A stretch of DNA of 64,000 nucleotides from Mobula hypostoma (Eukaryota), in NCBI RefSeq assembly GCF_963921235.1, contig NC_086097.1:165418001-165482000 (forward strand), written 5' to 3'. How positions within the stretch are numbered: the stretch's first letter is position 1; each line of letters starts with the position of its first letter. The notes under the pieces were generated by a model. That model had not been told where the DNA came from and did not search any database. It saw only the letters and a list, made by a program, of their open reading frames with translations. Positions 3,725-49,455 of this stretch are shown here, one piece after another. A program made the position numbers and the translations under genes.

Positions 3725-4409
3725 CTTGAACACCTCCCCCCCCCCCCAGGTTGGCCGGTCCGTAAGAATATTGTCAATATTAAACCAGTCTGTGGTGCAA
3801 AAAAGGTTGGGGACCCCTGAGGTAGAAGGTACAAGTGCCTTAGTGCTCACATCACCAGGTTCAAGAATGGTTATTACCCCTCAATCCTCAAGCTCTTTAG
3901 CAAAAGGAGATCACTGCACTTATTTAAGGACTCTTTTATTGTAATTTCATGCTTGTTATTTATTGCTGTTTACTTATATCTGCATATGCACAGTTTGTTT
4001 ACATTTAACAGTTTACAATATTCAATTACTATTCTATAGATTTGCTCAGTGTGCCACAGAAAAAGAATCTCAGGGTTGTATGTGGTGACATATGTACTCT
4101 GATAATAAATTTTACTTTTACCCTTGATAGCAAGGAGGGATAGGGTGGTTGTTTTTGGGTTGGTGAATGGGGCTCCATGCTGGGACATTTTACTGGCTTG
4201 GACCAGAGAAAAGTTGATTGATCGGTAAAAGAATCAAGGGTTATGGTGAAAGGGCAGAGCGGTAAACTGAAGAAAACTGGATCAGCTATAGGTGGAGCGG
4301 GCTTGAGCGGCATAGCCAACTCTTGTTTTCACCATTTATGATCTTGTGTACTGCACAATCAAAAGATATCCTTTTAGGCCCTAATAATTGTTACTTATAA
4401 GTTCAAACT

Positions 4410-4765
4410 CGTTCTGAAGCTGTGCCACACTGTCAACTGTGGTGTCTTCTGGGAGCAATGTTACAATGAGGTTCAGTCAACTGTCTTGGATGTAGGTAGA
4501 AGATCCTGTCCCATTGCACTATTTTTAAGTGCAGGAGGTCCTGACAGCCTAAACTCCAACAGATTATTTGATTGCAATTTTGTTTTTTGTGGAATCTTGC
4601 CGTCTATAGAAGTAGAAGCAGGATTAGATAGTTTTGGACCTTATTCCTGCTGTACCCTTCCACAGAGTTAAGGCTGTTTCTTGCATTTCAACAGTGGCTA
4701 CACTTCACCACTGCTGACTGATCTGAAGAAGTGAAAGGCATATATAAACGCAAGTTGTTGTTCTC
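4410..4765 (+). mobile_element. Old Deu-domain-like SINE remnant
   Basis: Recognised from memory by degraded motifs (gatcc..attgcactattt; tgtggaatcttgc; acagtggctacacttca) and the tail gtgaaaggcatatataaacgcaagtt. Confidence 0.45.
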
Positions 4766-4879
4766 AGAGTGGGTTTATGGTTAGCTTAATGTCGTATTTG
4801 ATCAGACTTTGATGCATATCTTAGATTAGTATAGCATGAAACAGGGCTATACCAACTACAGCATCCTCTCTGCTGGTCA

Positions 4880-6070
4880 TAGCCATAGAAAAGTACAGCT
4901 GAGGAGTAGGCCCTTTGGCCCATCTAGTCCGTACTGAAGCATTTAAACTGCCTACTCCCATCAAACTGTACCGAGATCATAGCCCTCCATACCCTTACCA
5001 TCCATGTACATATCTATACTTCTCTTGAACATTGAAATTGAGCTTGCATGCATCATTTGTATTCACAGCTCCTTCCACACCCTCACAATACTCTGTATGA
5101 AAAAGTTTCTCCTAATGTTCCCCTTAAACTTTTAACCTTTCACCCTTAACCCATGACCTCTGGTTGTAGTCCCGCCCAAACTTAGTCGAAAGAGCCTGCT
5201 TGCATTTACCCTGTCTACACATATCATCATTTTGTATACCTTTCTCAAATTGCCTCTCAATCTTTGATGTTCCAGGGAATTAATTCCTAACCTACTCAGT
5301 CTTTCCCTGTAACTCAGGCCCTCCAGACCTGGCAACATCCTTGTAAATTTTCTCTGTACTCTTTCAACCTTACTTACGTCTTTGATCCCCATTGCCTGCA
5401 TTTAACACATAACCCTCCATGCTTCTCCCCTTCACATACCTATCCAAATGCCTCAATCATTTCCTCTGGCATCTCGTTCCAGGTATTCAACTTCCCTTTG
5501 TGAAAAGAAGTTACCTCTCAGTTCCCTTTTAAATATCTCCCCTTTTGTGTTTCTGTTCCCCCCTCCCAAGACATAGAGACCAACTTCTTCCCATGACTCA
5601 GACCCAGGCAGCGTCGTCGTAAATCTCTTCCACATACTCTCCAGCTGAAACAATGTCTTTCCTATAACAGGGTGACCAAAACCATACATGATACTCTGTA
5701 CTCCGAGTCTGGCCTCACCAATGACTTAGATAACTGCAGCATAATGTCCCTACTCCTAAACTTCGTGTCTTGACTGAGCTCCTCCCCCACCCTGTCTGCT
5801 TGCATGGCCGCTTTCAGTGAACTATGCACATGTATTCCTGGGTCCTCTGTCCCACAATATTCATCAATGACCTGCTATTCACTATATAAGTCCCACCTTG
5901 TTTTGAATATTCAAAGTGCATTACATCACTCTTAACTGATCAAGATCTCTTTGTAATTCATTATAACTTGTTTCATTATCAACAAGATTCTCTAATTTTG
6001 TATCATCAGCAAACTTGCTAATTGTGCCACATACATTCATATCTAAATCACTTGCATAAATAATGAATAG
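4880..6070 (-). mobile_element. CR1 LINE ORF2 3' fragments (two adjacent copies)
   Basis: ERVQRKFTRMLPGLEGLSYRERL (5132..5401) and ISKFADDTKL (5921..6178). Confidence 0.85.
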
Positions 6071-6076
6071 TAGGAG

Positions 6077-7365
6077 TATATGGATTTTAGCAAGGCATTT
6101 GATAAGGTACCCCATGCAAGGCTTATTGAGAAAGTAAGGAGGCATGGGATCCAGGAGTGGCTTGCCCACAGAAGGCAAAGAGTGGTTGTAGATGGGTCAT
6201 ATTCTGCATGGAGGCTGGTGACCAATGGTGTGCCTCAGGGATCTGTTCTGGGACCCCTCCTCTTTACGATTTTTATAAATGACCTGGATGAGGAAGTGAA
6301 CAACAGGAATTCTGCAGATGCTGGAAATTCAAGCAACATACATCAAAGTTGCTGGTGAACGCAGCAGGCCAAGCAGCATCTATAGGAAGAGGTGCAGTCG
6401 ACGTTTCAGGCCGAGACCCTTCGTCAGGATGAGGAAGTGGATGGGTTAGTAAATTTGCTGATGACACAAAGGTTGGGGGTGTTGTGGATAGTGTGGAGGG
6501 CTATCAGAGGTTACAACGGGACATTGATAGGATGCAAAACTAGGCTGGGAAGTGGCAGATGGAGTTCAACCCAGATAAGTGTGAGGTGGTTCATTTTGGT
6601 AGGTTAAGTATGATGGCAGAATATAGTACTAATGGTAAGACTCTTGGCAGTGTGGAGGATCGGAGGATCAGAGGATTCTTGTGGTTCGAGTCCATAGGAA
6701 ACTCAAAGCTGTTATGCAGGTTGACTCTGTGGTTAAGAAGGCATATGGTGCATTGGCCTTCTTCAATCGTGGGATTGAGTTTAAGAGCGAAGAGCTAATG
6801 TTGCAGCTATATAGGACCCTGGTCAGACCCCACTTGGAGTACTCTGCTCAATTCTGGTCTCCTCACTACAGGAAGGATGTGGAAGCCATAGAAAGGGTGC
6901 AGAGGAGATTTACAAGGATGTTGCCTGGATTGGGGAGCATGCCTTATGAGAATAGGTTGAGTGAACGCCTTTTCTCCTTGGAGTAACGGAGGATGAGAGG
7001 TGACCTGATAGAGGTGTACAAGATGATGAGAGACATTGATTGTGTGGATAGTCAGAGGCTTTTCCCCAAGGCTGAGATGGCTAGCATGAGAGGGCACAGT
7101 TTTAAGGTGCTTGGAAGTCGGTACAAAGGAGATGTCAGGGGTAAGTGTTTTTACGCAGAGAGTGGTGAGTGCGTGGAATGGGCTGCCGGTGGGGGTGGTG
7201 GAGGTGGAAGCAATAGGGTCTTTTAAGAGACTCCTGGATGGCAACATGGAGCTTAGAAATATAGAGGGCTATGGGTAAAGCCTAGGTAGCTCTAAGGTAG
7301 GGACATGTTTGGCATAGCTTTGTGAGCCGAAGGGCCTGTATTGTGCTGTAGGTTTTCTATGTGTG
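6077..7365 (+). mobile_element. CR1 LINE RT-to-3'UTR fragment
   Basis: [40 protein letters not shown] and ERVQRRFTRMLPG motifs, with frameshifts. Confidence 0.92.
6299..6426 (-). mobile_element. Short Penelope pseudo-LTR insertion with 13-bp TSD
   Basis: Flanked by GGATGAGGAAGTG at 6286-6298 and 6427-6439 inside the CR1 RT. Carries the hammerhead core on the minus strand. Confidence 0.85.
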
Positions 7366-9009
7366 CCAGCATTGACCCTTGGGGGAAATCCGCTAGTCAA
7401 ATGCCTCTGGTTGGAGAATTTACCTTCAACCATCAACCCTCTGCTTCCTAACATTGAGCCAATTGTGAATCCACCTTACCAGCTCTCCTTGAGGACTATG
7501 TAATCTAATCTTCCAGATCAGTCTGCCACGCGAGACATTGTCAAAAGTCTTATATTCCAAAAGGTCCATAACGTCCACTGCCCTACCTTCATCTATCCCA
7601 TTAGTTATCTCTTAAAAAACTCACAAAGATTTGTCAGACTTGATCTCCCATGTGTAAAATCGAATGAACTACTTTATCCTATGGCAATTTTCTCCCCGGC
7701 CTCCCATAAGGTCTGGGGATGCACTTGATGGTCTTTAAGAGGATCTAGTCTCTCCCTAGTTAGCCTTTAACAGTCAATGTAACTGAAGGACGTTTTCGGA
7801 TTATTCTTTGTGTTCTGGCTGGCCCAGTCAATACAAGGAGAATTGAAATGTCCTCCAACTTGTATAATGACCTCTAGCTGTTTGCACTCCCCCCTTGAGA
7901 ATTTTCTGCATGACATTGGGAAGAATAAGAGATTGCTGGAAATATTTAATGAGTCAGACAGAATCTGCAGAGAGTAAAATGGTTAAAGCTTTGGTCTGTA
8001 ATATTTCATCTGATTAAGACCTGAAGCTTCGGATTTTCTGCAGCTATAGTAGCTTGCTTTTCTGAGATGGGCCCTTATGATTGCACAGTGTTGCTTGGAG
8101 TGACTTCCAGTTTAATCTGCATCTAATGGAGGGTATTGTTTTTTATGAAGTTCATTTAAGTGAAGAAAAGCCTTTTGTGGTCTGTTGTTTTAGTCCGGAT
8201 GTTGCTGCTAGGGATAGCAGTAGGGGAAGATTCCACTGTGGCACTAAAAATGAAGCTGGATAAGTGTCTGAAAGGAAAGAAATTGCAGAGTGTAGGGGAG
8301 ATGGCAAGGGAGGGGGATAACGGGATAAAATTTACAAAAGGCCAGTTTGAACTCAACAGACTGACCTACTTCTTTGCCTTTCTGTGAAATATTTGTCAAA
8401 CTATCTTACAGCTGTTACTTTTGACCAACCAGCTGCTGTTTGTACTTTATACAAACAAAGCCATGACTAGCATTACATTTCAAATAATGCCTGTCGTATC
8501 TGTGTTCCATGACTAATGCTTTGAGTGCATATTGCGTGACTAGTTCAGCAAGTGTGTGCCAAATGTTTGAAAAAATCTGCCTGAGACATGGAGTTCCAGG
8601 TGCAACTCCAAGAAAAGAGTTACTCATGTTTGATGTTTGGCTGGTGGTATTTTGTGCAGACTTTTGGATTGATGAGATAAAACTGAAGTACAGCTGTGTT
8701 GGCTTCAGTTTCCTGGCATAATTACGGAATTGTGGATTAAATGCTGGCAACTCAAGCAATGTTGCTTCAGCCGAGAATTGTTTGCTGGTGCCAGATTCCC
8801 ATCCCTTGCTGTTGCCTTCCTCCTTCACTGGTCTGCATTGCTTTGGATTAAACTGAGTCTCAAAGTAAAAGGGAGATTTTCTCGCTCATCTGAAGGACAG
8901 TGCTGTTGAATACATGGATATTCATTGAACACTAAATCATTGATTTGAATGAGAGAGCTTCCTGATTGAAGTTTTCCGTTCATCCTCTGCTGCTTTCTAG
9001 CCATCCTAA

Positions 9010-9523: not shown

Positions 9524-9792
9524 TGCAACACACATAAAAGTTGATGGTGAACACAGCAGGCCAGGCAGCATCTATAGGAAGAGGTACAGTCAACGTTTTG
9601 GGCCGAGACCCTTCGTCAGGACTAACTGAAAGAAAAGCTAGTAAGAGATTTGAAAGTGGGTGGGGGAGGGGGAGATCCGAAACATCAACTATACCTCTTC
9701 CTATAGATGCTGCCTGGCCTGCTGCATTCACCAGCAACTTTTAGGTGTGTTGCTTGAAATTCCAGCATCTGCAGATTTCCTCGTGTTTGCGT
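9524..9792. mobile_element. Inverted pair of Penelope pseudo-LTR fragments
   Basis: About 9525-9600 is the reverse complement of about 9678-9753 (gcaacacac...cagcaggccaggcagcatctataggaagaggta / tacctcttcctatagatgctgcctggcctgctg...gtgtgttgc). Confidence 0.85.
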
Positions 9793-17189: not shown

Positions 17190-17764
17190 ATAACCTGCTT
17201 CCAGTGGCCACACATTTTAATTCCACATCCCATTGCCATTCTGACATGTCTATCCACGGCCTCCTCTACTGTAAAGATGAAGCCACACTCAGGTTGAAGG
17301 AACAACACCTAATATTCCGTCTGGGTAGCCTCCAACCTGATGGCATGAACATTGACTTCTCTAACTTCCACTAATGCCCCACCTCCCCCTCGTACCCCAT
17401 CCATTATTTATTTATATACACACATCCTTTTTCTCTCTCTTCTTTTTCTCCCTCTGTCCCTCTGACTATACCCCTTGCCCATCCTCTGGTTCCCCCCCCC
17501 TTGTCTTTCTTCCCGGACCTCCTGTCCCATGATCCTCTCGTATCCCCTTTGCCAATCACCTGTCCAGCTCTTGGCTCCATCCCTCCCCCTCCTGTCTTCT
17601 CCTATCATTTCGGATCTCCCCCTCCCCCTCCAACTTTCAAATCCCTTACTCACTCTTCCTTCAGTTAGTCCTGACGAAGGGTCTCGGCCTGAAACGTCGA
17701 CTGCACCTCTTCCTACAGATGCTGCCTGGCCTGCTGCGTTCACCAGCAACTCTTATGGGTGTTC
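17190..17764 (+). mobile_element. Penelope-like element 3' end (GIY-YIG C-terminus plus pseudo-LTR)
   Basis: Translates PVATHFNSTSHCHSDMSIHGLLYCKDEATLRLKEQHLIFRLGSLQPDGMNIDFSNFH*, followed by a pyrimidine-rich UTR and a hammerhead motif. Confidence 0.9.
17662..17703 (+). ncRNA. Minimal type-I hammerhead ribozyme motif
   Basis: Stem I AGTC(17667-70)/GACT(17699-702); core CTGACGA 17671-77; stem II AGG/CCT; GAAAC 17691-95; GTC triplet 17696-98; palindromic ACGT stem III with no loop. Confidence 0.75.
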
Positions 17765-18680
17765 TACAGAGGTTGTTTCTGGGACCACTTCTTTTCATAT
17801 TATACATCAGTGATTTGGATGACTGACTTGATGGCTCTGTGACCATTTGCAGGTGAAACGAAGATAGGTGGAGGGTCAGGCAGCGTTGAGGAAGCAGGGA
17901 GTCTGCAGAAGGACTTAGACAGATTAGGAGAATGGGCACAGAAGTGGCAGATGGAATATAGTGCAGGGAAGTGTATGGACATGCACTTTGGTAGAAGAAA
18001 TTAAAGTCCTGTCTTTTAAACAGGAAGAAAATTCTGAAATCAAAGGTGCAAAGAGATATGGAAGTCCTTGTGCAGTGTACTCTAAAAGTTAACTTGCTGG
18101 TTGAGTCAATGGTAAGGAAGGTAAATGCAATGTTTGCATTCATTTTGAGAGGACTAGAATACAAAGCAAGGGTGTAAGGCTGAGGCTTTATTAGGCATTG
18201 GTCAGACAGCACTTGAAGTATTGTGAGCAGTCTAGGGCCCCTTATCTAAGAAAGGAAGTGCTGGCGTTGGAGAGGCTCCAGAGGATCTTTATGAGAATGA
18301 TTCCATGAATGAAAGTGTTAATGTGTGAGGAGTGTTTGATGGCTATGAGCTTGTACTCACTGGAGTGTAGAAGAAAGAGGGGAGGATCTCATTGAAACCA
18401 TTCGAATATAGAGTGGATGTGAAGAGGATGTTTCCGATAGTGGGAGAGTCTAGGGCCAGAGGGTGGTAAATCCTTCCCAAAGACAGCTATGGAGCCAGGT
18501 CACAGGTATATGTAAAGCGGAGGTTGGTGGCTTCTTGGTTAGAAAAGGTGTCAAAGGTTACGGGGAGAAATCAGGAGAATGCTGTTGAGAGGGACTATAA
18601 ATCAGCCTTGATGGAATAGCAGAGCAGATTTGAAGGGCTGAATACCCTACTTCTGCTTCTATGTCTTATGGTCTCTTTTA
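17755..18680 (+). mobile_element. CR1 RT-to-3'UTR fragment
   Basis: Degenerate LQKDLDRLGEWAQKWQMEY and RKVNAMFAFILRGLEYK, plus the CR1 tail. Confidence 0.8.
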
Positions 18681-38285: not shown

Positions 38286-38450
38286 ACAGTCGATATTTTG
38301 CATTGAGGCCCTTCATCAGAACTCGTGAATCCTGGTGAAAGATCTCGCACTGAGACATCGACTCTTTATTTCTCTCCATAGGTGTCGCTGGACCCACTGT
38401 GTCTTGCTCAAGATTTCTAGCATCTGCAGAATCCCTTCCTTTCATTCTGT
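38286..38450. mobile_element. Penelope pseudo-LTR-derived inverted remnant
   Basis: Two decayed hammerhead-like motifs in opposite orientations, plus the ctagcatctgcag tail. Confidence 0.6.
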
Positions 38451-40790: not shown

Positions 40791-40906
40791 AGTCCAGTTA
40801 TCTCTATGTCTAAAATGGCACTGAGATCTTTTTCTATGCTGTGTGCTGATGATATTTTAAGTTCTTTATTTGCTTGTCTGTTCTCTTACGTATGTTTTTC
40901 CTGCAG

Positions 40907-41006
40907 GAGCTCTGTCAGTGTCGCCCCGTGGACGGAAACTGTTCGTGCTGCAAGGAATGCATGCTTTGCTTGGGGACCCTGTGGGACGAGTGCTGCGACT
41001 GTGTGG
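40907..41006 (+). CDS. TWSG1: Twisted gastrulation homolog 1, internal coding exon (100 nt, phase 0 to 1)
   Basis: Acceptor tttttcctgcag|GAG and donor GTGG|gtgagt. Translates [33 protein letters not shown](G), matching the N-terminal cysteine-rich domain of vertebrate TWSG1. Not represented in this frame in the ORF track. Confidence 0.97.
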
Positions 41007-41257
41007 GTGAGTCATCTTTTGTCCTCAGGCATTTGTTAGTTTAATCTCTGTGACGCTGATTGTTAAACTGCAATTGTAAAGAACAAGAAAAGTACAATGT
41101 ACTATTATCTGGGTTGTGTTTTTATTGGAATAATTGCAGCTTGCTTAAGTTTAGTTTGGCATTCCCCATATTGGATTTAGAGTTTAAAATTTCGCTGTAC
41201 TAACTGTTAACTTGGCTTTAGTGACATTCTACTGTTAATCTTATGAGTTTGGCAATT

Positions 41258-42212
41258 ATAGACAATAGATATAGGTGCAGGAGTAGGCCATTCGGCCCTT
41301 CGAGCCAGTACCGCCATTCACTGTGATCATGGCTGATCATCCACAATCAGTATCCAGTTCCTGCCTTATCCCCATAATCTTTGATTCTGCTATCTTTAAG
41401 AGCTCTATCCATCTCTTTCTTGAAAGCATCCAGAGACTTGGCCTCCACAGCCTTCTGGGGCAGAGCATTCCACATATCCACCACCCTATGGGTGAAAAAA
41501 ATTTTCCTCAACTCCATTCTAAATGGTCTACCCCTTATTCTTAAACTGTGGCCTCTGGTTCTGGACTCACCCATCAGTGGGTACATGCTTCCTGCCTCCA
41601 GCGTGTCCAATCCCTTAATAATCTTATATGTTTCAATAAGATCCCCTCTCAGCCTTCTAAATTCCAGAGTATACAAGCCCAGTCGCTCCAATCTTTCGAC
41701 ATATGACAGTCCCGCCATCCTGGGAATTAACCTTGTGAACCTATGCTGCACTCCCTCAATAGCAAGAATGTCTTCCTCAAATTTGGAGACCAAAACTGCA
41801 CACAATACTCCAGGTGTGGTCTCACCAGGGCCCTGTACAACTGCAGAAGGACCTCTTTGCGCTTATACTCAATTCCCCTTGTTATGAAGGCCAGCATGCC
41901 AGTAGCTTTTTTCACTGCCTGCTGTACCTGCATGCTTGCCTTCAGTGACTGATGTACAAGAACACCTAGATCTCATTGTACTTCCCCTTTTCCTAATTTG
42001 ACTCCATTTAGATAATAATCTTCCTTCCTGTTCTTACCACCAAAGTAGATAACCTCACATTTATCCACATTAAACTGCATCTGCCATGCATCCGCCCACT
42101 CTTCCAGCCTGTCCAAGTCACCCTGCATTCTCATAACATCCTCCTCACATTTCACACTGCCACCCAGCTTTGTGTCATTTGCAAATTTGCTAATGTTACT
42201 TTTAATTCCTTC
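41258..42212 (-). mobile_element. CR1 RT-to-3'UTR fragment
   Basis: ORFs 41347..41805, 41727..41933 and 41973..42155 (QGDLDRLEEWADAWQMQFNVDKC). Confidence 0.92.
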
Positions 42213-42625
42213 ATCGAAACCATATGCAATTAAACAACTTAGCTTTATAATTAATTTGACTAAAGGGTTAATAAAGAAAAAGCAAAAAGAAAAGGCCCTA
42301 TTTTAATGAAACAGTCTAATGTGCACAAGTTGGAGCTCACGGTTTCCCTTTTGCTGATCCTTCATCGATTTCCCTGGGCTTCGTCAAATCCCGGCCCCAC
42401 TCCAAGTCCACTCCTATGATCTCTCCTGTCCAGCGTCTTCTCTCTCCATCTCCCACGGAACAAAAGACCCAGGTCACCTCAGTGTCAGGCACACAGCACG
42501 AAAACACACTCTCTTCATTGGATGGCTCACATTCCAAAACACCCATTATCTCTAACCACAGCCCAAACACTACTTCTACAGAAAGACCATTACATTAGCA
42601 GTGAAACCTTTCCTAGGGTGTTACA
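42213..42625 (-). mobile_element. Possible solo or partial LTR
   Basis: The minus strand starts TGTAACACCC and is non-coding. The other terminus and a TSD were not found. Confidence 0.35.
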
Positions 42626-42725
42626 TATAGATTATATATTATACCAAAACTGGAATTTTAAAATGTGCATGATATTGCAAAAGTTAATACTTGGGTAACA
42701 CTTCCAAATATTGTATAATTCTACA

Positions 42726-43442
42726 CAGTGGATTCTGGTTAATTGGGACACATCAGGACCGGTACGTTTTGGCCCAATTAAGTGGCTCTCCAATTAGCCG
42801 AAGTTTGATGGAAATAGGGATAAAAAAGACAAACTGCCAACTGAGAACCAATTCATGTCCTTAAATGAAATACGGAACAAATTAGAACACTACCAAGACC
42901 TATACAGTGCTATAAAACTGTGTATTAGTTCCTAATACTTATCAACAGAGGAATTCATCTGCTGTATTCTTATAATTGACTGTAAATGGACTAACATCAG
43001 CATGGACACCTCCTGCAGGTAATGGACTGCCTTCATACACTACTTTAGACAACTGCATCCTCCAAATCTTCATTTTCATTGTAATATCTTTAAATCTTTG
43101 TAATTTCTAACTTGTTGAAGTAGTGGAATTGTTTCATTTTCTCTTCTGGGCCTTTCTGGCATCTCCAAGTCTGAATGCTTGATACTGCAGTGAGCAAAAC
43201 CATTCCCAATTTTCTTACTGTTTCTCACCAACTATCTGTGCCAAAACGCACTGCTTTTTGAACACAAACATACACAGTGACACTATTTTAGAACTCTGCT
43301 CTAAGCACAGTGTAGTGTCTAGCGGCCAAATGACTGACACTAGTTAGAAACTAGCAACAGTCTCTTCCTCCAACTAAGTGGCCCCTGTCCCAATAAATGG
43401 CTGCCCCAATTAACCAGTGGCCCAATTAACAGGAATCCACTG
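42726..43442. mobile_element. Tigger/pogo-like MITE
   Basis: TIRs CAGTGGATTCTGGTTAATTGGG / CCCAATTAACAGGAATCCACTG. TA follows the right end; the left flank reads CA. Subterminal cccaatta repeats. Confidence 0.8.
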
Positions 43443-43679
43443 TATTTGGAAAGGAAAGTTCTGGTGCATTTACAGGTAAAAGAAAGAAGGACATGTACAA
43501 GGACGTTTGTTAGTTCAGGGCATCCCAATGTTTTGCACCTATTAAAGTATTCTAGAGGATACTTTAGAGTATTTCAATGTACTCCAAAGAGTTCTTTCCA
43601 TCCAGTTCAGTCTCTAGCTTACAGGGCAGTCACTTTCCCACTTTCTCTGTGTACTGTTCTCCCCATACTTTCATCAACT

Positions 43680-43885
43680 CTGCAGATTCTACCTCTGACC
43701 TACACAGCCAGGGGCAATTTACCGTTTCCTTGTTCACCTACCAACCTTTGATGTGAGAGGAAACCTGAGCACTTGGGGGTACCTGTCCAGTTACAGTGGG
43801 GGCGTGGAGTGCGCACACACCGAGTGCCAGATGCCAGGATCGAAGCTGAGATGCTCGAAGCGGTGGCAGCAGCTCTATGAGCTGT
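43680..43885 (-). mobile_element. V-SINE-like remnant
   Basis: The minus strand has a tRNA-like head (ggcacagc...ttcgatcctg) and gtgctcaggtttcctctcacatcaaag. Confidence 0.5.
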
Positions 43886-46096
43886 GCCTCTCTGCCACAA
43901 ATCACAAGTGAAAATTGTTGTACCAGTTTTGCAGCCTTGCTTCAAGGAAATTCAGGACGTTGGGGCTGGCTGTCCTGTGCCTTGAACTAAGATCTGAGGT
44001 TTATGTAGCGGGGAAGGCAGATGTGTAGTTCCACGTGGACATGGTAGGCTGAGAGGCCTGTTTCCGTGTTGCATGATTCTGTGACCCTACAGCCGCCTTT
44101 CTGGTAATAGAGGGATGCAGCATGAACAGGCCTCACTGACTATCAAGCACCTATTTATACCAATTCCAAAGTTCAAAGTACATTTATTATCAAAGTGTGT
44201 ATACATTATACAGCTCTGAGATTCGTCTTCTTGCAGACAACCACAAAAAAAAGAAACCCAAAAGAACCCACTTTAAAAAAGAGACTGTCCAACACTCATT
44301 GTGCGGGGGTGGGGGGGGGGAAACAAATCATGCAAACAATAAACGCAAGGAAATAGCATTCTAAACTGAAGTCCACAAAGAGAATCTGCCCACAGACCTT
44401 AGTTCATGCAGAGCCGAATTAAACTTCTTGGAGCAGTGAGTCTTCCCCTCGCCTGGGACCCCGTCTCCCTGACCTTTTCAATCTGGCTTGGCGCATAAGT
44501 TGTCCAAACATTGGGTTCAGTTGCTTCAATATGCTCTGGGGCCTGGACCCCGCCGCCCTGATAGCACCTTGTACCCAAGCCTATTCTCCTCAACCCCTGA
44601 CCTTCCCCCTCCATTCCTCAGGTTCTGCCATTCGCTTACACTCGGGGCATCTTACAGTGTCCATTTCACCTCCCAAGCCAACATCTTTGCCCATCACAAG
44701 GAGAACGTGCAACCTCCACACAACCAGCACCAGAGGTCAGGATTGAAGTGGGTCTCTGAAGGTGTGAGGTATCTCATGGAAGGTTACATTTCTAACTGTG
44801 TAGGATTTTGTGCTTACATTATTGCGGGGGGAGGGCAACTTGGAGTTCTGGGAAAGACTGTTACCTAAGGACCAATATCTGACACAACAATGAGCGAATT
44901 TTGATTTCTTTGCAAAATTCAGCAGTGTTGTGTCTGCAAATAAGCATTCTATTTTCACTTACTTTGCAAATTACTGAGATATCTTTGTTATTTATAAATC
45001 CTGATTCCTGCAATGTTTGAGCAGAAGGTAACAAATCACGCACAGTTGGTGATCTGGTGTGCAAGGAATTTAACTCTTAAATTAAGCTATTTGATGCTCT
45101 TACATTGTTAAAGGGGATGGGATTTGAAACTGAGAGAAAAGAGAGGGTAAATAGAGGGGCTTTGTCAAAGACCTTGGAACAGTTACTTTTTGTCTTTTGC
45201 AATTTAACTATTTTTCTCATTCGCTCTTCAGAGACTATCTGTGTGTGTCCAATGTCCACCACAGTATAAGCATTTATACGTGTTAACTTGTATATTCAGA
45301 AGGGTTTAATAAGTGCAGAAGTTCTTCTTAACAAGGACCTAACTCCTCATTGGGATTGGTTTATTATTGTCACATATACTGACAAACTATGAAAAACTTG
45401 TCTGCAGAATAACAAATAGCAACTTGTGAGAAAAACCAAGCCCTAAAAATATTATTAAAATGTGCAACAAGTCAGGCTTCATCCTTTGAGAGGTAAAGCT
45501 TTACATCCCTGTTGGATGGCCTTTCATCATCAGAATTATTTTAAAATGTGGTTTTGAGGATAATATTAGAACCAATTAGAATTATGGAGAGATGAAAATC
45601 TACATATTTCCACTTAACATCAGAATGTAAAATCAGGAAACACATGTTCGGTGGTGGTACATTTGGAATATTCTTCCTTATACAGCTGTATACAGATTAT
45701 TGATTGTTAATTTTTAAGCTATTCTTATTGATCAAAGATACTAAGGAGTCATATAACAGACCAGTCACAATCTGACTGAATAAACTTGAGTACTTAAATG
45801 ACTTACTCTTGTTCCTCTGAGGGACTATTTGTTTTGAGCCTTTGTAAGTTCTGCTGTTTCATTTTTTCCCTCTGGTCCTGTCTTTGTTCCTTTGATCACT
45901 CTTTCAATGAAGTTTTGGATTTCTTTATTCATTGCTTTTCTGCATGAAGATTTGTAAAGATAAGTTTCCTCTTAATGTTACACAATAGCTAATGCAATAA
46001 GAGATTGCTGATCCCAGCAGACTGAACTAGCATCCTCTAGAGAAAGTGAAATGTGATAGGTTAATGCTGTGATGTTAATTTTTCTTTAATTCCTAG

Positions 46097-46363
46097 GAAT
46101 GTGCAACCCTAGAAATTATAGTGACACACCACCCACATCAAAGAGTACTGTAGAAGAGCTACACGAACCCATCCCATCTCTCTTCCGTGCTCTGACAGAA
46201 GGTGAAACTCACCTGCATTGGAACATCGTCTCATTCCCTGTCTCAGAAGAGCTCACTTATCATGAGAACCTAGTCTCCTTTTTGGAAAGCCTGGACATGT
46301 CTCCACTTCAGAATATATCACTGCCTGTAAACAGCCCCCATGTAGAAGTCGTGACTGAGAAAG
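46097..46363 (+). CDS. TWSG1: TWSG1 internal coding exon (267 nt, phase 1 to 1)
   Basis: Acceptor ttcctag|GA and donor AAAG|gtaacg. Translates (G)MCNPRNYSDTPPTSKSTVEELHEPIPSLFRALTEG...VVTEK(E), in frame with the flanking exons. Corresponds to the start of ORF 46099..46539. Confidence 0.97.
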
Positions 46364-48379
46364 GTAACGATACCATTTGTTGTTTGGTTGTGTTGAGCTC
46401 GGTAACTCTTTCCTTTTGTCTTGTCAGAACAGGTCATTTCTGCTTGTTATCTGCCTTTGATTCTGGCACAGTTTCCTTTTCATTCACAAAGACTGGCCTG
46501 CCGACATGGTCTATAGCTTTGCTAGTAGTAACAAGCTGATTATAACTGTTACATTGGCTCATCTGATATTAACCTGTCACAGATATTCCCTTTACTCTAC
46601 TCATTCTTGCCGCCTCTTCTCTGCCACTAAAGGCTCTATTGTACTCACACCCAGTTCCGATGAAGGGTCTCAAGTCAGAAACATTAACTCTGTTTCTCCT
46701 TCCACATATGCTGGCTGACCGGCTGAGTGTTTCCAGCTATTCTTGGTAAATTTGTTTATTACTGTCACATATACCAGGGTATCGTGAAAAACGTGTCTTG
46801 CATACTGTTCAATTCGCTACAACAGTGCTTTGAGATAGTACAAAGTAAAACACTAACAGAGGTTTCTTAGCTATGGAGTCAACATGATTGGACCAGAACA
46901 GATTATTGGTGATGGCCACTCCTAGGAACATGAAACTCTCAACCCTCTTAAATTCAGCACCTTTGATGTAAACATGAGCATGTGTACCAGCTGCTAGCCT
47001 TTCTGCTTTTCAAATCTTTCCTATCAGTTGATATAAAACAACAGTGGTTAAATTACTTCAGTTTGTATACTTCCTTTGCCGTACGCAATTGGAGCAAAGG
47101 TTGTAAAGCCTGTTCTGAAGGATGACACACTTTGGCTCCGTCACAATGTATGACAGAGACTCTTTGCTTAAGGTGTTTGTTTGATGATGCGGCTGGGTGG
47201 AGGCTAGAGCTGGAGAATAGTGGTTCGGCAAGAATTTTACAGTGACAAACTTAAATATGGAAACTTTAATATGTATAGTGCAGTTAATTAAGAAGTTACA
47301 GAAAATGCTGTAATAGAAGTTGCAACACCTGTCTTTCACCTCTTCCCTTTTCACCATCAGGGACTAACAGGCTCTCCAGCTTCCTGTCCCTGTCTCTCTA
47401 CCTACTCTTCCTTCATCCTTCAGCCCCCTCCGTTCAGCTGAATGTGTTGTGTGAAACATTCATCATGCTTGTTTACAATGCTCAATAAAACTTTGGAATA
47501 TTGCCAGCACTTTGTAGTTATTCCAATTCCAGAGTTCATTGCCTCTTAAAAGATAATCTGATGGGTCAATTATGTTGCAAGCACTTAAATTAGTGTTGGA
47601 TTAGTAAGACAATAGTGTATTAATGCTTTTGGAATTAATGCTTCCTTTAATTTCCCACTCAGAGTAGCTGATACCTTGTACAGGTGACCCCTGCATTATT
47701 ATCTTACAGACTTCAATATTCACTATGAAAATCATGGCTATGAAATAAAATTTCACTCCGATGAAATTTATTTAAAAGGATAGAAAGTAAATAATTTAAA
47801 CTTTTTCCCCAACTTGCGCCTTTTGCCAGATGAAGATGACATGGCTTTGCACAATGCAAGCGTCACCTGTATTATGCGAAGTGCAATAAGATGCTTTTCT
47901 CCATGGAGAAGGGCATCGGTTTATGGTAAGGGGAAAGAAATTGAAGGGGATCTGGGAAAGAACAGCATCCCATCGTTTTCTCATCACCACTTTATCTGTC
48001 TGTGCTGCTATCAATGTGGATCTTTGTATTTGTACACCAAGGTCCTATTGGTCTTCCTAAAGTCCTACTGATGGTTGTGAATGTCCCACCCATTTTAGAC
48101 CCCTCCCCCCTCCAAAATGCATCACCTCACAATTATCAGGATTAAATTCCATCTACCATTAGGAAATCTAAAGCCTTTGTCTTTAGTTCCCTATTCTGTG
48201 TCCTAGCAACTCAGTGCAATTCTGGTATCCTGGTTGATGCTGAGTTCACCCATACTAAGACCATTAATTTTCAGAATGAGATTTATTTTCCATGACTTGG
48301 ATAATGTGAAATTTGTTGTTCACTTTCACTACATTGCCTCATGCGATTTGCTAAAAACTTTGTTTATATTGTTAATTAC

Positions 48380-48825
48380 TTTAGTCATACCACTGAGCAT
48401 CATCTCGCTCTACATCCTTGCTAAGCTTGAGTTGAGCAAAAATTCTGCTGCTCAATTTCTATTAACCATGTATCTGTCGACCTTTACTTATCTATTTTGC
48501 TGATGTTTCCTCTTTTTTTCAATTATTATTCTCACTTTCAGATTCCTCCACAGCCTTGTCCCATCCTATCTCTGAAATATCTTATAGCCTATACATCTAA
48601 GATCACTGCTTTTTCGGTTCTGGGTCTCCTGCCCAGTCCCAGCCTAACTTCTCTCCTTATTACTCAAAAACGTCTTCTCCTTTAAATGCATATTAAAATC
48701 TACCTTTTTGAGCAAGCTTTTTCACATCTCTTTGACTATTTCTGTCCCAGTATCAAGTTTTGTGTGCTAACATTTGTATGAAGCATGTTTTAGATGTTCT
48801 GTTTTGTCAGAGGCATGTTTTTGAA
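48380..48825 (+). mobile_element. Very old L2/CR1-clade LINE 3' remnant
   Basis: KLELSKNSAAQFLLT resembles L2 KLQLVQNSAAR. The end reads ttaaaatctacctttttgagcaagctttt (LKT.LF..AF-like). Confidence 0.4.
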
Positions 48826-48856
48826 ATTTTATTGACTTTGAAAAAATATTTTGCAG

Positions 48857-49038
48857 AGCCTCTGTGCACCGTGGTCTACTTCAATGAATGCATGTCAATC
48901 CATCAATGTAAAAATTCATGCGAGTCCATGGGTGCCTCGAAGTACAGATGGTTTCACAATGCCTGCTGTGAATGTATAGGCCCAGACTGCATTGATTATG
49001 GCAACAAAGTGGTCAAATGCATGAACTGCACCTTTTGA
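48857..49038 (+). CDS. TWSG1: TWSG1 last coding exon (182 nt to TGA)
   Basis: Acceptor ttttgcag|AG. Translates (E)[59 protein letters not shown], the C-terminal Tsg domain. Confidence 0.97.
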
Positions 49039-49455
49039 AGACAGAACTGTAATGTGAAGGTAGCATGTAATCGCTGTAGAGCTAACAATATTGACCGTCT
49101 TTTCATGTGAAGTTTAGAGTTTTGCTATTTTTTTTGTTAAAGTTCTGCACTTCATGCTTAAGAATGTATTACGGATGTTGGAACTTTGAAGTGACGTGAG
49201 AGTTGAAACTGCAGCTTTTTTATATGGTGTAATTTACTGCTGATGTGTAATTTAAAAAAAAGCATTCCTTTAAAATCATACTGACATGTAGATATATGGA
49301 ATAAATCAATTGTATCTTCTGTTTTTTAATTGATGTACTCCTGCACCTGCTTACATAGTTCTATGAATAAACTATTCTTGTAGGAGTGACAAGGGTGTTT
49401 AAGAGTTAGTTCTACTTTTCTCTCTCACTTATGTAAGTAGCACTTCAACAATAAA
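49039..49455 (+). promoter_or_regulatory. TWSG1 proximal 3' UTR with candidate polyadenylation signals
   Basis: AT-rich and repeat-free after the stop codon. AATAAA at 49300-49305, 49366-49371 and 49450-49455. The true 3' end cannot be determined from sequence alone. Confidence 0.5.

What the first reader, a model, noticed from the sequence alone, without database searches (positions are those of the whole stretch)
17662..17703. Intact minimal hammerhead ribozyme, sense-oriented inside the TWSG1 intron
Seen: AGTC-CTGACGA-AGG(gtctcgg)CCT-GAAAC-GTC^GACT has every core element of a type-I hammerhead, with a loopless palindromic ACGT stem III. It lies just downstream of a Penelope GIY-YIG ORF end and on the same strand as TWSG1. 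Established: Penelope-like elements carry minimal hammerheads in their pseudo-LTRs, and palindromic stem III forms are thought to cleave as dimers. Inference: this copy could cut the TWSG1 pre-mRNA after 17698 or define PLE RNA ends. It is the only intact sense copy I see, so it would need a partner in trans or would be weak.
Basis: partly seen in the sequence, partly recalled or inferred. Interest (0 to 1): 0.75.

Follow-up and report, generated by a model that had tools for sequence, protein, structure and literature searches.

The report
Penelope transposon's stray hammerhead in intron
This is a known, stripped-down hammerhead ribozyme motif at the end of a broken Penelope-type jumping gene, one of about 33,000 identical copies in this genome, and although it lies on the transcribed strand of a TWSG1 intron it is likely an inactive passenger rather than a cutter of that gene's RNA.

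Summary
The motif is real (17666-17703, + strand) and lies sense in a 42-kb TWSG1 intron. It is the published minimal hammerhead of Penelope-like elements, here in the 3' pseudo-LTR of a 5'-truncated Neptune-type copy (17198-17763). The same 36 bases occur 32,886 times in the genome, and two more exact sense copies lie in the next gene. Stem II is better drawn with an extra A and a G-U closing pair. A cut in TWSG1 pre-mRNA is not supported. No intact sense partner lies in the gene, folding predicts inactive shapes, and published monomers of this kind do not cleave unaided. Spliced TWSG1 contigs exist, though the join across this intron was not shown. Copy ends do not mark the cut site: 0 of 72 non-inverted copies start there and 16 start 27-36 bases upstream, so templates were likely uncut. 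The scan has reported this motif and this end pile-up before, in this genome and in others. Cleavage itself is untested. Ordinary; interest 0.15.

The parts
17198..17763 (+). 5'-truncated copy of a Neptune-type Penelope-like element (ORF end plus 3' pseudo-LTR, short form without the tail)
   Evidence: aligns from -502 to +65 relative to the cut site on the near-full-length copy L082 at 94%; median 93% identity to 135 alignments of 520 bases or more among fetched loci; no convincing target-site duplication (best 6 bases)
17198..17374 (+). last ~58 codons of the RT/GIY-YIG ORF
   Evidence: same C-terminus as the 766-aa and 889-aa ORFs of L082 and L081
17375..17763 (+). 3' pseudo-LTR
   Evidence: same sequence stands before and after the ORF in L082, unit 3,511 bases
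17645..17666 (+). pyrimidine tract ending in CAG/TCAGTT: looks like a splice acceptor or an initiator, and is predicted to pair with the 5' half of the hammerhead core
   Evidence: sequence; predicted hairpin; function untested
17666..17703 (+). minimal type-I hammerhead motif
   Evidence: fits the published consensus
17671..17678 (+). core C3-A9 plus the extra A before helix II
17679..17690 (+). helix II, 4 pairs closed by G10.1-U11.1, 4-base loop
   Evidence: U11.1 is the majority form of the family
17691..17698 (+). G12-A14, palindromic ACGT (helix III only in a dimer) and C17; predicted cut between 17698 and 17699
   Evidence: cut site inferred from hammerhead numbering
40907..41005 (+). 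TWSG1 coding exon that closes the 42-kb host intron (end approximate by 1 base)
46096..46361 (+). TWSG1 coding exon (ends approximate by 1-2 bases)
48855..49391 (+). TWSG1 last coding exon and start of 3' UTR, as far as contigs reach

Best explanation
The motif is the minimal hammerhead carried in the pseudo-LTR of a very abundant Penelope-like retroelement, left in the TWSG1 intron by a truncated insertion, and it is likely a catalytically silent passenger there. Shown: it sits in a 566-base element fragment; the same motif flanks the ORF on both sides in a near-full-length copy; it has 32,886 identical copies; it has no intact sense partner in TWSG1. Inferred: the element's enzyme started copying at an internal site about 65 bases past the motif, read through an uncut hammerhead and fell off in the ORF end. 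Predicted: in the intron the RNA folds so that the core is paired up, and it would need a second copy or the element's protein to cut. This copy ends before the tail region where, by analogy with the anole element, that protein starts copying. Any real job of the motif likely belongs to the element's own tandem RNA, not to the host gene.
For: Copy number 32,886 with no strand bias in the assembly. Partial tandem pLTR-ORF-pLTR with the motif at both ends, RT and GIY-YIG matches and an 11-base target duplication. 3' ends of 149 sampled copies fall in two groups, +54 to +78 (83) and +93 to +117 (66), the one-sided 30-40 base tail of PLEs. 141 of 149 copies run across the cut site; 0 of 72 non-inverted copies start at -1 to +3 and 16 start at -36 to -27. 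Of 33 long copies, 25 cross the upstream cut site, 8 start at +21 to +111 and none starts at the site. Isolated 38-mer: core-locking helix probability 0.98; in 90-300 bases of context the hammerhead helices have probability 0.0; the double-hammerhead fold scores -11.5 against -22.0 kcal/mol for two locked monomers. In 100 copies, changes at non-CpG core positions (8 of 900) do not differ from non-core positions (20 of 1300; p 0.25). Published: a single min-HHR showed no cleavage and dimers only low activity (PMC4209133); the anole element's hammerhead cleaved only with its protein, and no RNA-seq reads ended at the site (PMC11167929). Spliced TWSG1 contigs are present in 4 of 4 runs of one study.
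Against: All catalytic bases are intact in this copy. ViennaRNA does not score the core's tertiary contacts, so its energies understate the active fold. No copies starting at the cut site does not show there is no cutting: cut RNA could be degraded, circularised or not used as template. Under a uniform spread only 1.9 such starts are expected among the 30 non-inverted copies ending between -60 and +19, so the zero alone is weak. 3 of 77 inverted arms do start at -1 to +2, and 3 of 70 read-through copies start at -6, -5 and -2. The runs are RNA only by guess, and the splice across this very intron was not shown. The review PMC6765202 cites dimer cleavage by such motifs, so a partner in trans is possible among thousands of transcribed copies.
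Confidence: 0.85

Rival explanations
1. The copy is silent alone but cuts TWSG1 pre-mRNA at a low rate when a second copy's RNA pairs with it in trans or when the element's protein binds, for instance in the germ line. The effect on the gene would be incidental damage, not regulation.
For: Intact core; tens of thousands of identical copies could supply partners; protein-assisted cleavage is shown for the anole element (PMC11167929); dimers show low cleavage (PMC4209133); intronic ribozyme cutting can lower splicing (PMC10274809 passages citing Fong 2009).
Against: No intact sense partner in the same transcript; the double-hammerhead fold is predicted to be far less stable than competing folds; this copy stops at +65, before the tail; 141 of 149 copies came through the site uncut even though the element's protein made them.
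Confidence: 0.1
2. The copy has been adopted by the host to tune TWSG1 splicing or output, like the conserved intronic hammerheads of amniotes or the CPEB3 ribozyme.
For: Sense orientation in an intron; the 36-mer is unchanged while the fragment is 4-7% from its sisters; precedent in PMC6155905 and PMC10274809 (passages).
Against: 37 of 100 sampled copies are equally unchanged, so no selection is needed. Two more exact sense copies lie in the next gene. It lacks helix III, unlike the canonical adopted ribozymes. A TWSG1 + ribozyme search gave one unrelated paper.
Confidence: 0.02
3. In this young subfamily the motif has stopped being a ribozyme at all, and is kept only as part of the promoter, splice or replication signal at the front of the element's RNA.
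For: The most numerous form has U in place of the consensus C11.1 (at least 32,886 against 6,207). Copy ends ignore the cut site and pile up at the motif's front edge. Hammerhead mutants did not affect insertion in vitro for the anole element.
Against: Every catalytic base and the palindrome are kept in the source copy. G-U at this place occurs in several published min-HHRs, among them Schistosoma mansoni (1), Xenopus (1) and cichlids. This reading overlaps the best explanation for the window copy and differs only on the family.
Confidence: 0.03

Closest known systems
Minimal hammerheads (min-HHR) in pseudo-LTRs of metazoan Penelope-like elements (Cervera and De la Pena 2014, PMC4209133; main text parts 1-2 of 4 and supplement parts 1-2 of 3 read)
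   Same: Same core, extra base between 9 and 10.1, short helix I, no helix III, palindromic 15.2-16.2, present in both flanking repeats, mostly found as single motifs of truncated copies. The Acropora digitifera Neptune entry has nearly the same layout.
   Different: No cartilaginous fish in the table and alignment I read. Copy number here (32,886 exact) exceeds the 4,000-9,000 per genome reported there, and copies are far more uniform. Helix II is short (4 pairs) and closes with G-U in the main subfamily.
PAc, Poseidon element of Anolis carolinensis (Frangieh et al. 2024, PMC11167929; parts 1-2 of 4 read)
   Same: Hammerhead in the pLTR; two copy-start sites downstream of it that define a 30-40 base tail; uncut RNA is the main template.
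   Different: Different clade: this element has the linker zinc finger that Poseidon lacks. Its likely ORF start lies about 140 bases after the cut site (read), not inside stem II. Nothing here has been tested biochemically.
Neptune clade of endonuclease-bearing PLEs (Craig et al. 2021, PMC8557442; passages read)
   Same: RT followed by GIY-YIG with cysteines between the two triplets, CX4CxxC linker, partial tandems, inverted 5' pieces, tail.
   Different: No tree was built, so Neptune versus Nematis rests on motif and host group.
Conserved intronic hammerheads of amniotes (RECK and others) and the CPEB3 ribozyme (PMC6155905, PMC10274809; passages read)
   Same: Self-cleaving motif on the transcribed strand of an intron.
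   Different: Those are few-locus, conserved across species and can fold as monomers. This is one of tens of thousands of young transposon copies and has no helix III.
Non-LTR retrozymes (Li, Clavereau and Pollet 2026, bioRxiv 10.64898/2026.07.22.740005; parts 1-2 of 5 and passages read)
   Same: Derived from PLE pLTRs with type-I hammerheads; reported in one chondrichthyan genome.
   Different: Defined by tandem units; the window copy is solitary and carries ORF sequence. The array at L229 fits that definition better.

Membership tests
min-HHR of metazoan PLEs | Core CUGANGA ... GAAA ... NUH | tested here: met
   consensus
min-HHR of metazoan PLEs | Extra base between positions 9 and 10.1 | tested here: met
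   A at 17678; that register has probability 0.87-0.97 against 0.02
min-HHR of metazoan PLEs | Helix II closed by G10.1 with a pyrimidine at 11.1 (C in the consensus, U in several published members) | tested here: met
   G-U here; the strict G-C consensus pair is absent in this copy and present in 6,207 sister copies
min-HHR of metazoan PLEs | No helix III; palindromic 15.2-16.2 | tested here: met
   ACGT at 17694-17697
min-HHR of metazoan PLEs | Lies in both pseudo-LTRs flanking an RT-endonuclease ORF | tested here: met
   L082 positions 2808 and 6319
min-HHR of metazoan PLEs | Weak self-cleavage as dimer or with protein | not testable with these tools
   needs in vitro assay
Canonical type-I hammerhead (Rfam models) | Helix III and loop-loop contacts that allow monomer cleavage; match to an Rfam model | tested here: not met
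   no helix III; no Rfam hammerhead match
Neptune-type PLE | Single ORF with RT then C-terminal GIY-YIG | tested here: met
   RVT_1 E 1.6e-5 and 7.3e-5, GIY-YIG E 1.5e-4 and 2.3e-3, all under Pfam's cut-offs; RYIDD motif visible
Neptune-type PLE | CX2-5CxxC zinc finger in the RT-endonuclease linker, plus CCHH cysteines in the endonuclease | tested here: met
   CX4CxxC linker and CxxC between the GIY and YIG triplets
Neptune-type PLE | Partial tandem pLTRs, inverted 5' pieces, one-sided 30-40 base tail | tested here: met
Neptune-type PLE | RT groups with Neptune rather than Nematis in a tree | not tested
   no reference proteins were fetched
Host-adopted intronic ribozyme (RECK type) | Rare, locus-specific motif outside an active transposon family | tested here: not met
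   32,886 identical copies; part of a PLE fragment
Host-adopted intronic ribozyme (RECK type) | Conserved at the orthologous site in other species | not tested
   no related genomes are held for this window
Non-LTR retrozyme | Two or more consecutive hammerhead-bearing tandem units | tested here: not met
   solitary copy; met at L229

The most novel reading that the evidence does not exclude
The tens of thousands of identical half-working hammerheads form a latent, transposon-switched intron-cutting system. When the element is expressed, its RNA (as a dimer partner) or its protein switches on sense copies in host introns such as TWSG1 and the neighbouring RhoGAP gene, cutting many pre-mRNAs at once.
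Probability: 0.06. Interest if true: 0.75.

Novelty: new member of a known kind. Interest (0 to 1): 0.15.

Why it matters
For TWSG1 it most likely does not matter: it is one ordinary transposon relic. The family has modest value as test material for an open question, what PLE hammerheads do. It offers tens of thousands of young uniform copies, a natural 4-unit tandem (L229), two identical sense copies 6.1 kb apart in one gene, and copy ends that pile up 27-36 bases before the cut site instead of at it. If activation in trans were shown, a large share of long genes in this animal would carry switchable cut sites, which would be surprising.

Tried and rejected
Rfam at gathering score over the window and at E up to 10 over 17300-18000: no hammerhead match; expected for a motif without helix III. 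Pfam on the short ORF remnant: no match; identity came from longer copies instead. The idea that U11.1 is a private CpG decay of this copy was rejected: the U form outnumbers the C form at least 5 to 1 and the mirror decay product G12A 23 to 1. The idea that U11.1 is a new variant was rejected: G-U closes helix II in several published motifs. The idea that copy ends mark the cut site was rejected. The idea that short copies come from RNA spliced at the upstream AG found no support: their upstream flanks share no exon and many are target duplications. No target duplication was found for the window copy. The look-up of sequencing runs: no RNA holder listed on record, only runs guessed to be RNA. 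The join from the first coding exon across the hammerhead's intron was not shown, and no reads were laid on the motif; contigs could not show RNA ends in any case. Lunse et al. (PMC5785218) is not held and was not read; I know it only through the review passage. A sense/antisense bias test in introns was not run, because no gene annotation is available. The first script timed out.

Full report
Observation. The sequence is as described. On the + strand, stem I is 17666-17670 with 17699-17703, the core CUGACGA is 17671-17677, GAAA is 17691-17694, the palindrome ACGT is 17694-17697 and C17 is 17698. Rfam gives no hammerhead match at gathering score or at E up to 10. The bare core pattern is not enriched in the window (11 matches, shuffle mean 6.49), but the whole 36-mer is no accident: it occurs 16,386 + 16,500 = 32,886 times in the 3.48-Gb genome, with 0 for the reversed control. 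The register GGGU/GCCU with an unpaired A has 0.87-0.97 and matches the published layout, which has an extra base between positions 9 and 10.1 (PMC4209133).

Host gene. TWSG1 is on the + strand. Pfam Tsg matches lie at about 46.1 and 48.9 kb. Tsg_N positions 1-17 match an exon about 1.1-1.2 kb before the window and positions 18-49 the exon at 40907. The motif is therefore sense in an intron of about 42 kb. Ten related copies lie in the window. The other sense copies in the gene (938, 9679 partial, 38328, 40672, and one at L001:3424) have lost core bases, so there is no intact partner in the same transcript. The host is likely a cartilaginous fish; that is my recollection of these repeats, not a tool result.

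What it is part of. The motif lies in a fragment at 17198-17763 that holds the last ~58 codons of an ORF and a pseudo-LTR. The protein end had 142,807 first-look candidates in the genome. Among 20 longer copies fetched, L082 shows the classic partial tandem: ORF end, pLTR with hammerhead, 766-aa ORF, second pLTR with hammerhead. Its unit is 3,511 bases and it has an 11-base target duplication. The ORFs match RVT_1 and GIY-YIG, below Pfam's cut-offs. They carry a CX4CxxC linker, which marks Neptune and Nematis (PMC8557442 passages); no tree was built. A downstream anchor occurs 57,460 times and a marker near the ORF start only 624 times, so about 99% of copies are truncated like this one.

Subfamilies and decay. 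The U11.1 form (32,886, 36-mer) outnumbers the C11.1 form (6,207, 31-mer) and the G12A form (1,421, 31-mer), so U11.1 was in the source element. It is not new: G-U closes helix II in several motifs of the published alignment. Of 149 anchored copies, 104 span the motif and 4 with more than 8 mismatches were dropped. Of the remaining 100, 37 are identical to the window motif, and non-CpG core positions change no less than non-core ones (8 of 900 against 20 of 1300, p 0.25). An unchanged motif therefore needs no selection. All 4 G12A changes are in C11.1 copies and none is in the 71 U11.1 copies, because U removes the CpG.

Do copy ends mark the cut? I aligned 149 copies anchored 20-52 bases past the cut site. 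They came from the window, 20 neighbouring loci and 90 loci in the first 5.2 Mb of contig C1, with duplicates removed. 3' ends fall at +54 to +78 (83) or +93 to +117 (66), the tail known from PLEs, which in the anole element equals the two reverse-transcription start sites (PMC11167929). The window copy ends at +65. 141 of 149 run across the cut site. Of 72 non-inverted copies, none starts at -1 to +3 and 16 start at -36 to -27. That is 16 of the 30 ending between -60 and +19 (binomial p 9e-8, 6e-6 after allowing for the chosen window). Many of these stubs have 10-16 base target duplications. The 77 inverted arms are often two halves of one insertion and are not independent; 3 of them start at -1 to +2. 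Of 70 copies that read into the ORF start, none starts at -1 to +3 and three start at -6, -5 and -2. Of the 33 that run 900 bases or more, 25 cross the site and 8 start beyond +20. Alignment ends are uncertain by a few bases, and only 1.9 starts at the site are expected by chance, so the strong result is the read-through and the upstream pile-up, not the zero. The templates were likely uncut. Why ends gather at the front edge is unresolved. An initiator-like TCAGTT, an acceptor-like AG and a predicted hairpin loop all lie there. In Drosophila virilis Penelope an intron ends at the same place.

Can it cut TWSG1? Alone, the 38-mer is predicted to pair its core with the cleavage triplet (probability 0.98, -11.0 kcal/mol). 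The double-hammerhead fold scores -11.5, against -22.0 for two locked monomers and -30.3 for the best dimer. In 90-300 bases of context the hammerhead helices have probability 0.0. These energies omit tertiary contacts and are only suggestive. Published tests agree: a single min-HHR gave no detectable cleavage and dimers little. The anole hammerhead cut only with its protein, was not needed for insertion, and left no read ends at the site. In four runs of one study, RNA by guess only, single contigs join 41005 to 46096 and 46361 to 48855 at GT-AG and extend 163-595 letters further 5'. Their match begins at 40904, as expected if the upstream exon ending in CAG is joined, but that join was not shown. 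Two more exact sense copies lie in the next gene, one between two RhoGAP exons (L012:8847, L013:4991; the name RALBP1 is recalled from gene order). An intact sense copy is thus commonplace.

What is known. This is a member of the min-HHR group of Cervera and De la Pena 2014 (main text parts 1-2 of 4, supplement parts 1-2 of 3 read), which already describes thousands of single motifs from truncated PLEs. I saw no cartilaginous fish in its table or alignment. The 2026 preprint (parts 1-2 of 5 and passages) covers one chondrichthyan genome; I did not see its supplements, which may list this family. Searches found no paper on this locus or, from titles and abstract starts, on this family. Lunse et al. 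was not available. Earlier notes of this scan report the same motif and the same end pile-up in this genome and others (a look-up by sequence found nothing). My counts came before those look-ups, and the notes are not independent support.

Verdict. A real feature and a new member of a known kind. Passenger reading 0.85, conditional cutting in trans 0.10, motif no longer a ribozyme in the family 0.03, host adoption 0.02. Interest 0.15.

Noticed in passing
L229:4474-5736 (G000:C2, about 157.816 Mb): A 310-base unit repeated 4.1 times at 99% identity, made of this element's hammerhead-bearing front end: a retrozyme-like array and a natural substrate for a dimer cleavage test.
   Followed up: partly
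L012:8847 and L013:4991 (window-equivalent 82,847 and 88,991): Two exact sense copies 6.1 kb apart in the next gene (RhoGAP domain, likely RALBP1), one between two RhoGAP exons; a better place than TWSG1 to look for cis dimer cleavage.
   Followed up: partly
window 6335-6429 (- strand) and genome-wide: Short stubs of about 95 or 135 bases that start at the hammerhead's front edge with 10-16 base target duplications; the window example has 13 bases and sits inside another repeat. The cause of the pile-up is unresolved.
   Followed up: yes
window 17645-17666: Pyrimidine tract with CAG that resembles a splice acceptor at least as well as TWSG1's own three (by eye); in sense orientation it could be a cryptic acceptor, a more ordinary risk to the host gene than the ribozyme.
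   Followed up: partly
window 9527-9751: Head-to-head fold-back pair of two element ends, both with the G12A change.
   Followed up: partly
L082:2975-2985: The element's likely start codon overlaps the stop of a short upstream frame that runs through the hammerhead region (TGATG); read by eye.
   Followed up: no
window 38288-38363: Two diverged hammerhead-like copies of older families back to back.
   Followed up: no
family-wide, position 17690-17691: The U11.1 change removes a CpG and so shields the catalytic G12 from methylation decay: G12A in 4 of 29 C-form copies and 0 of 71 U-form copies.
   Followed up: yes
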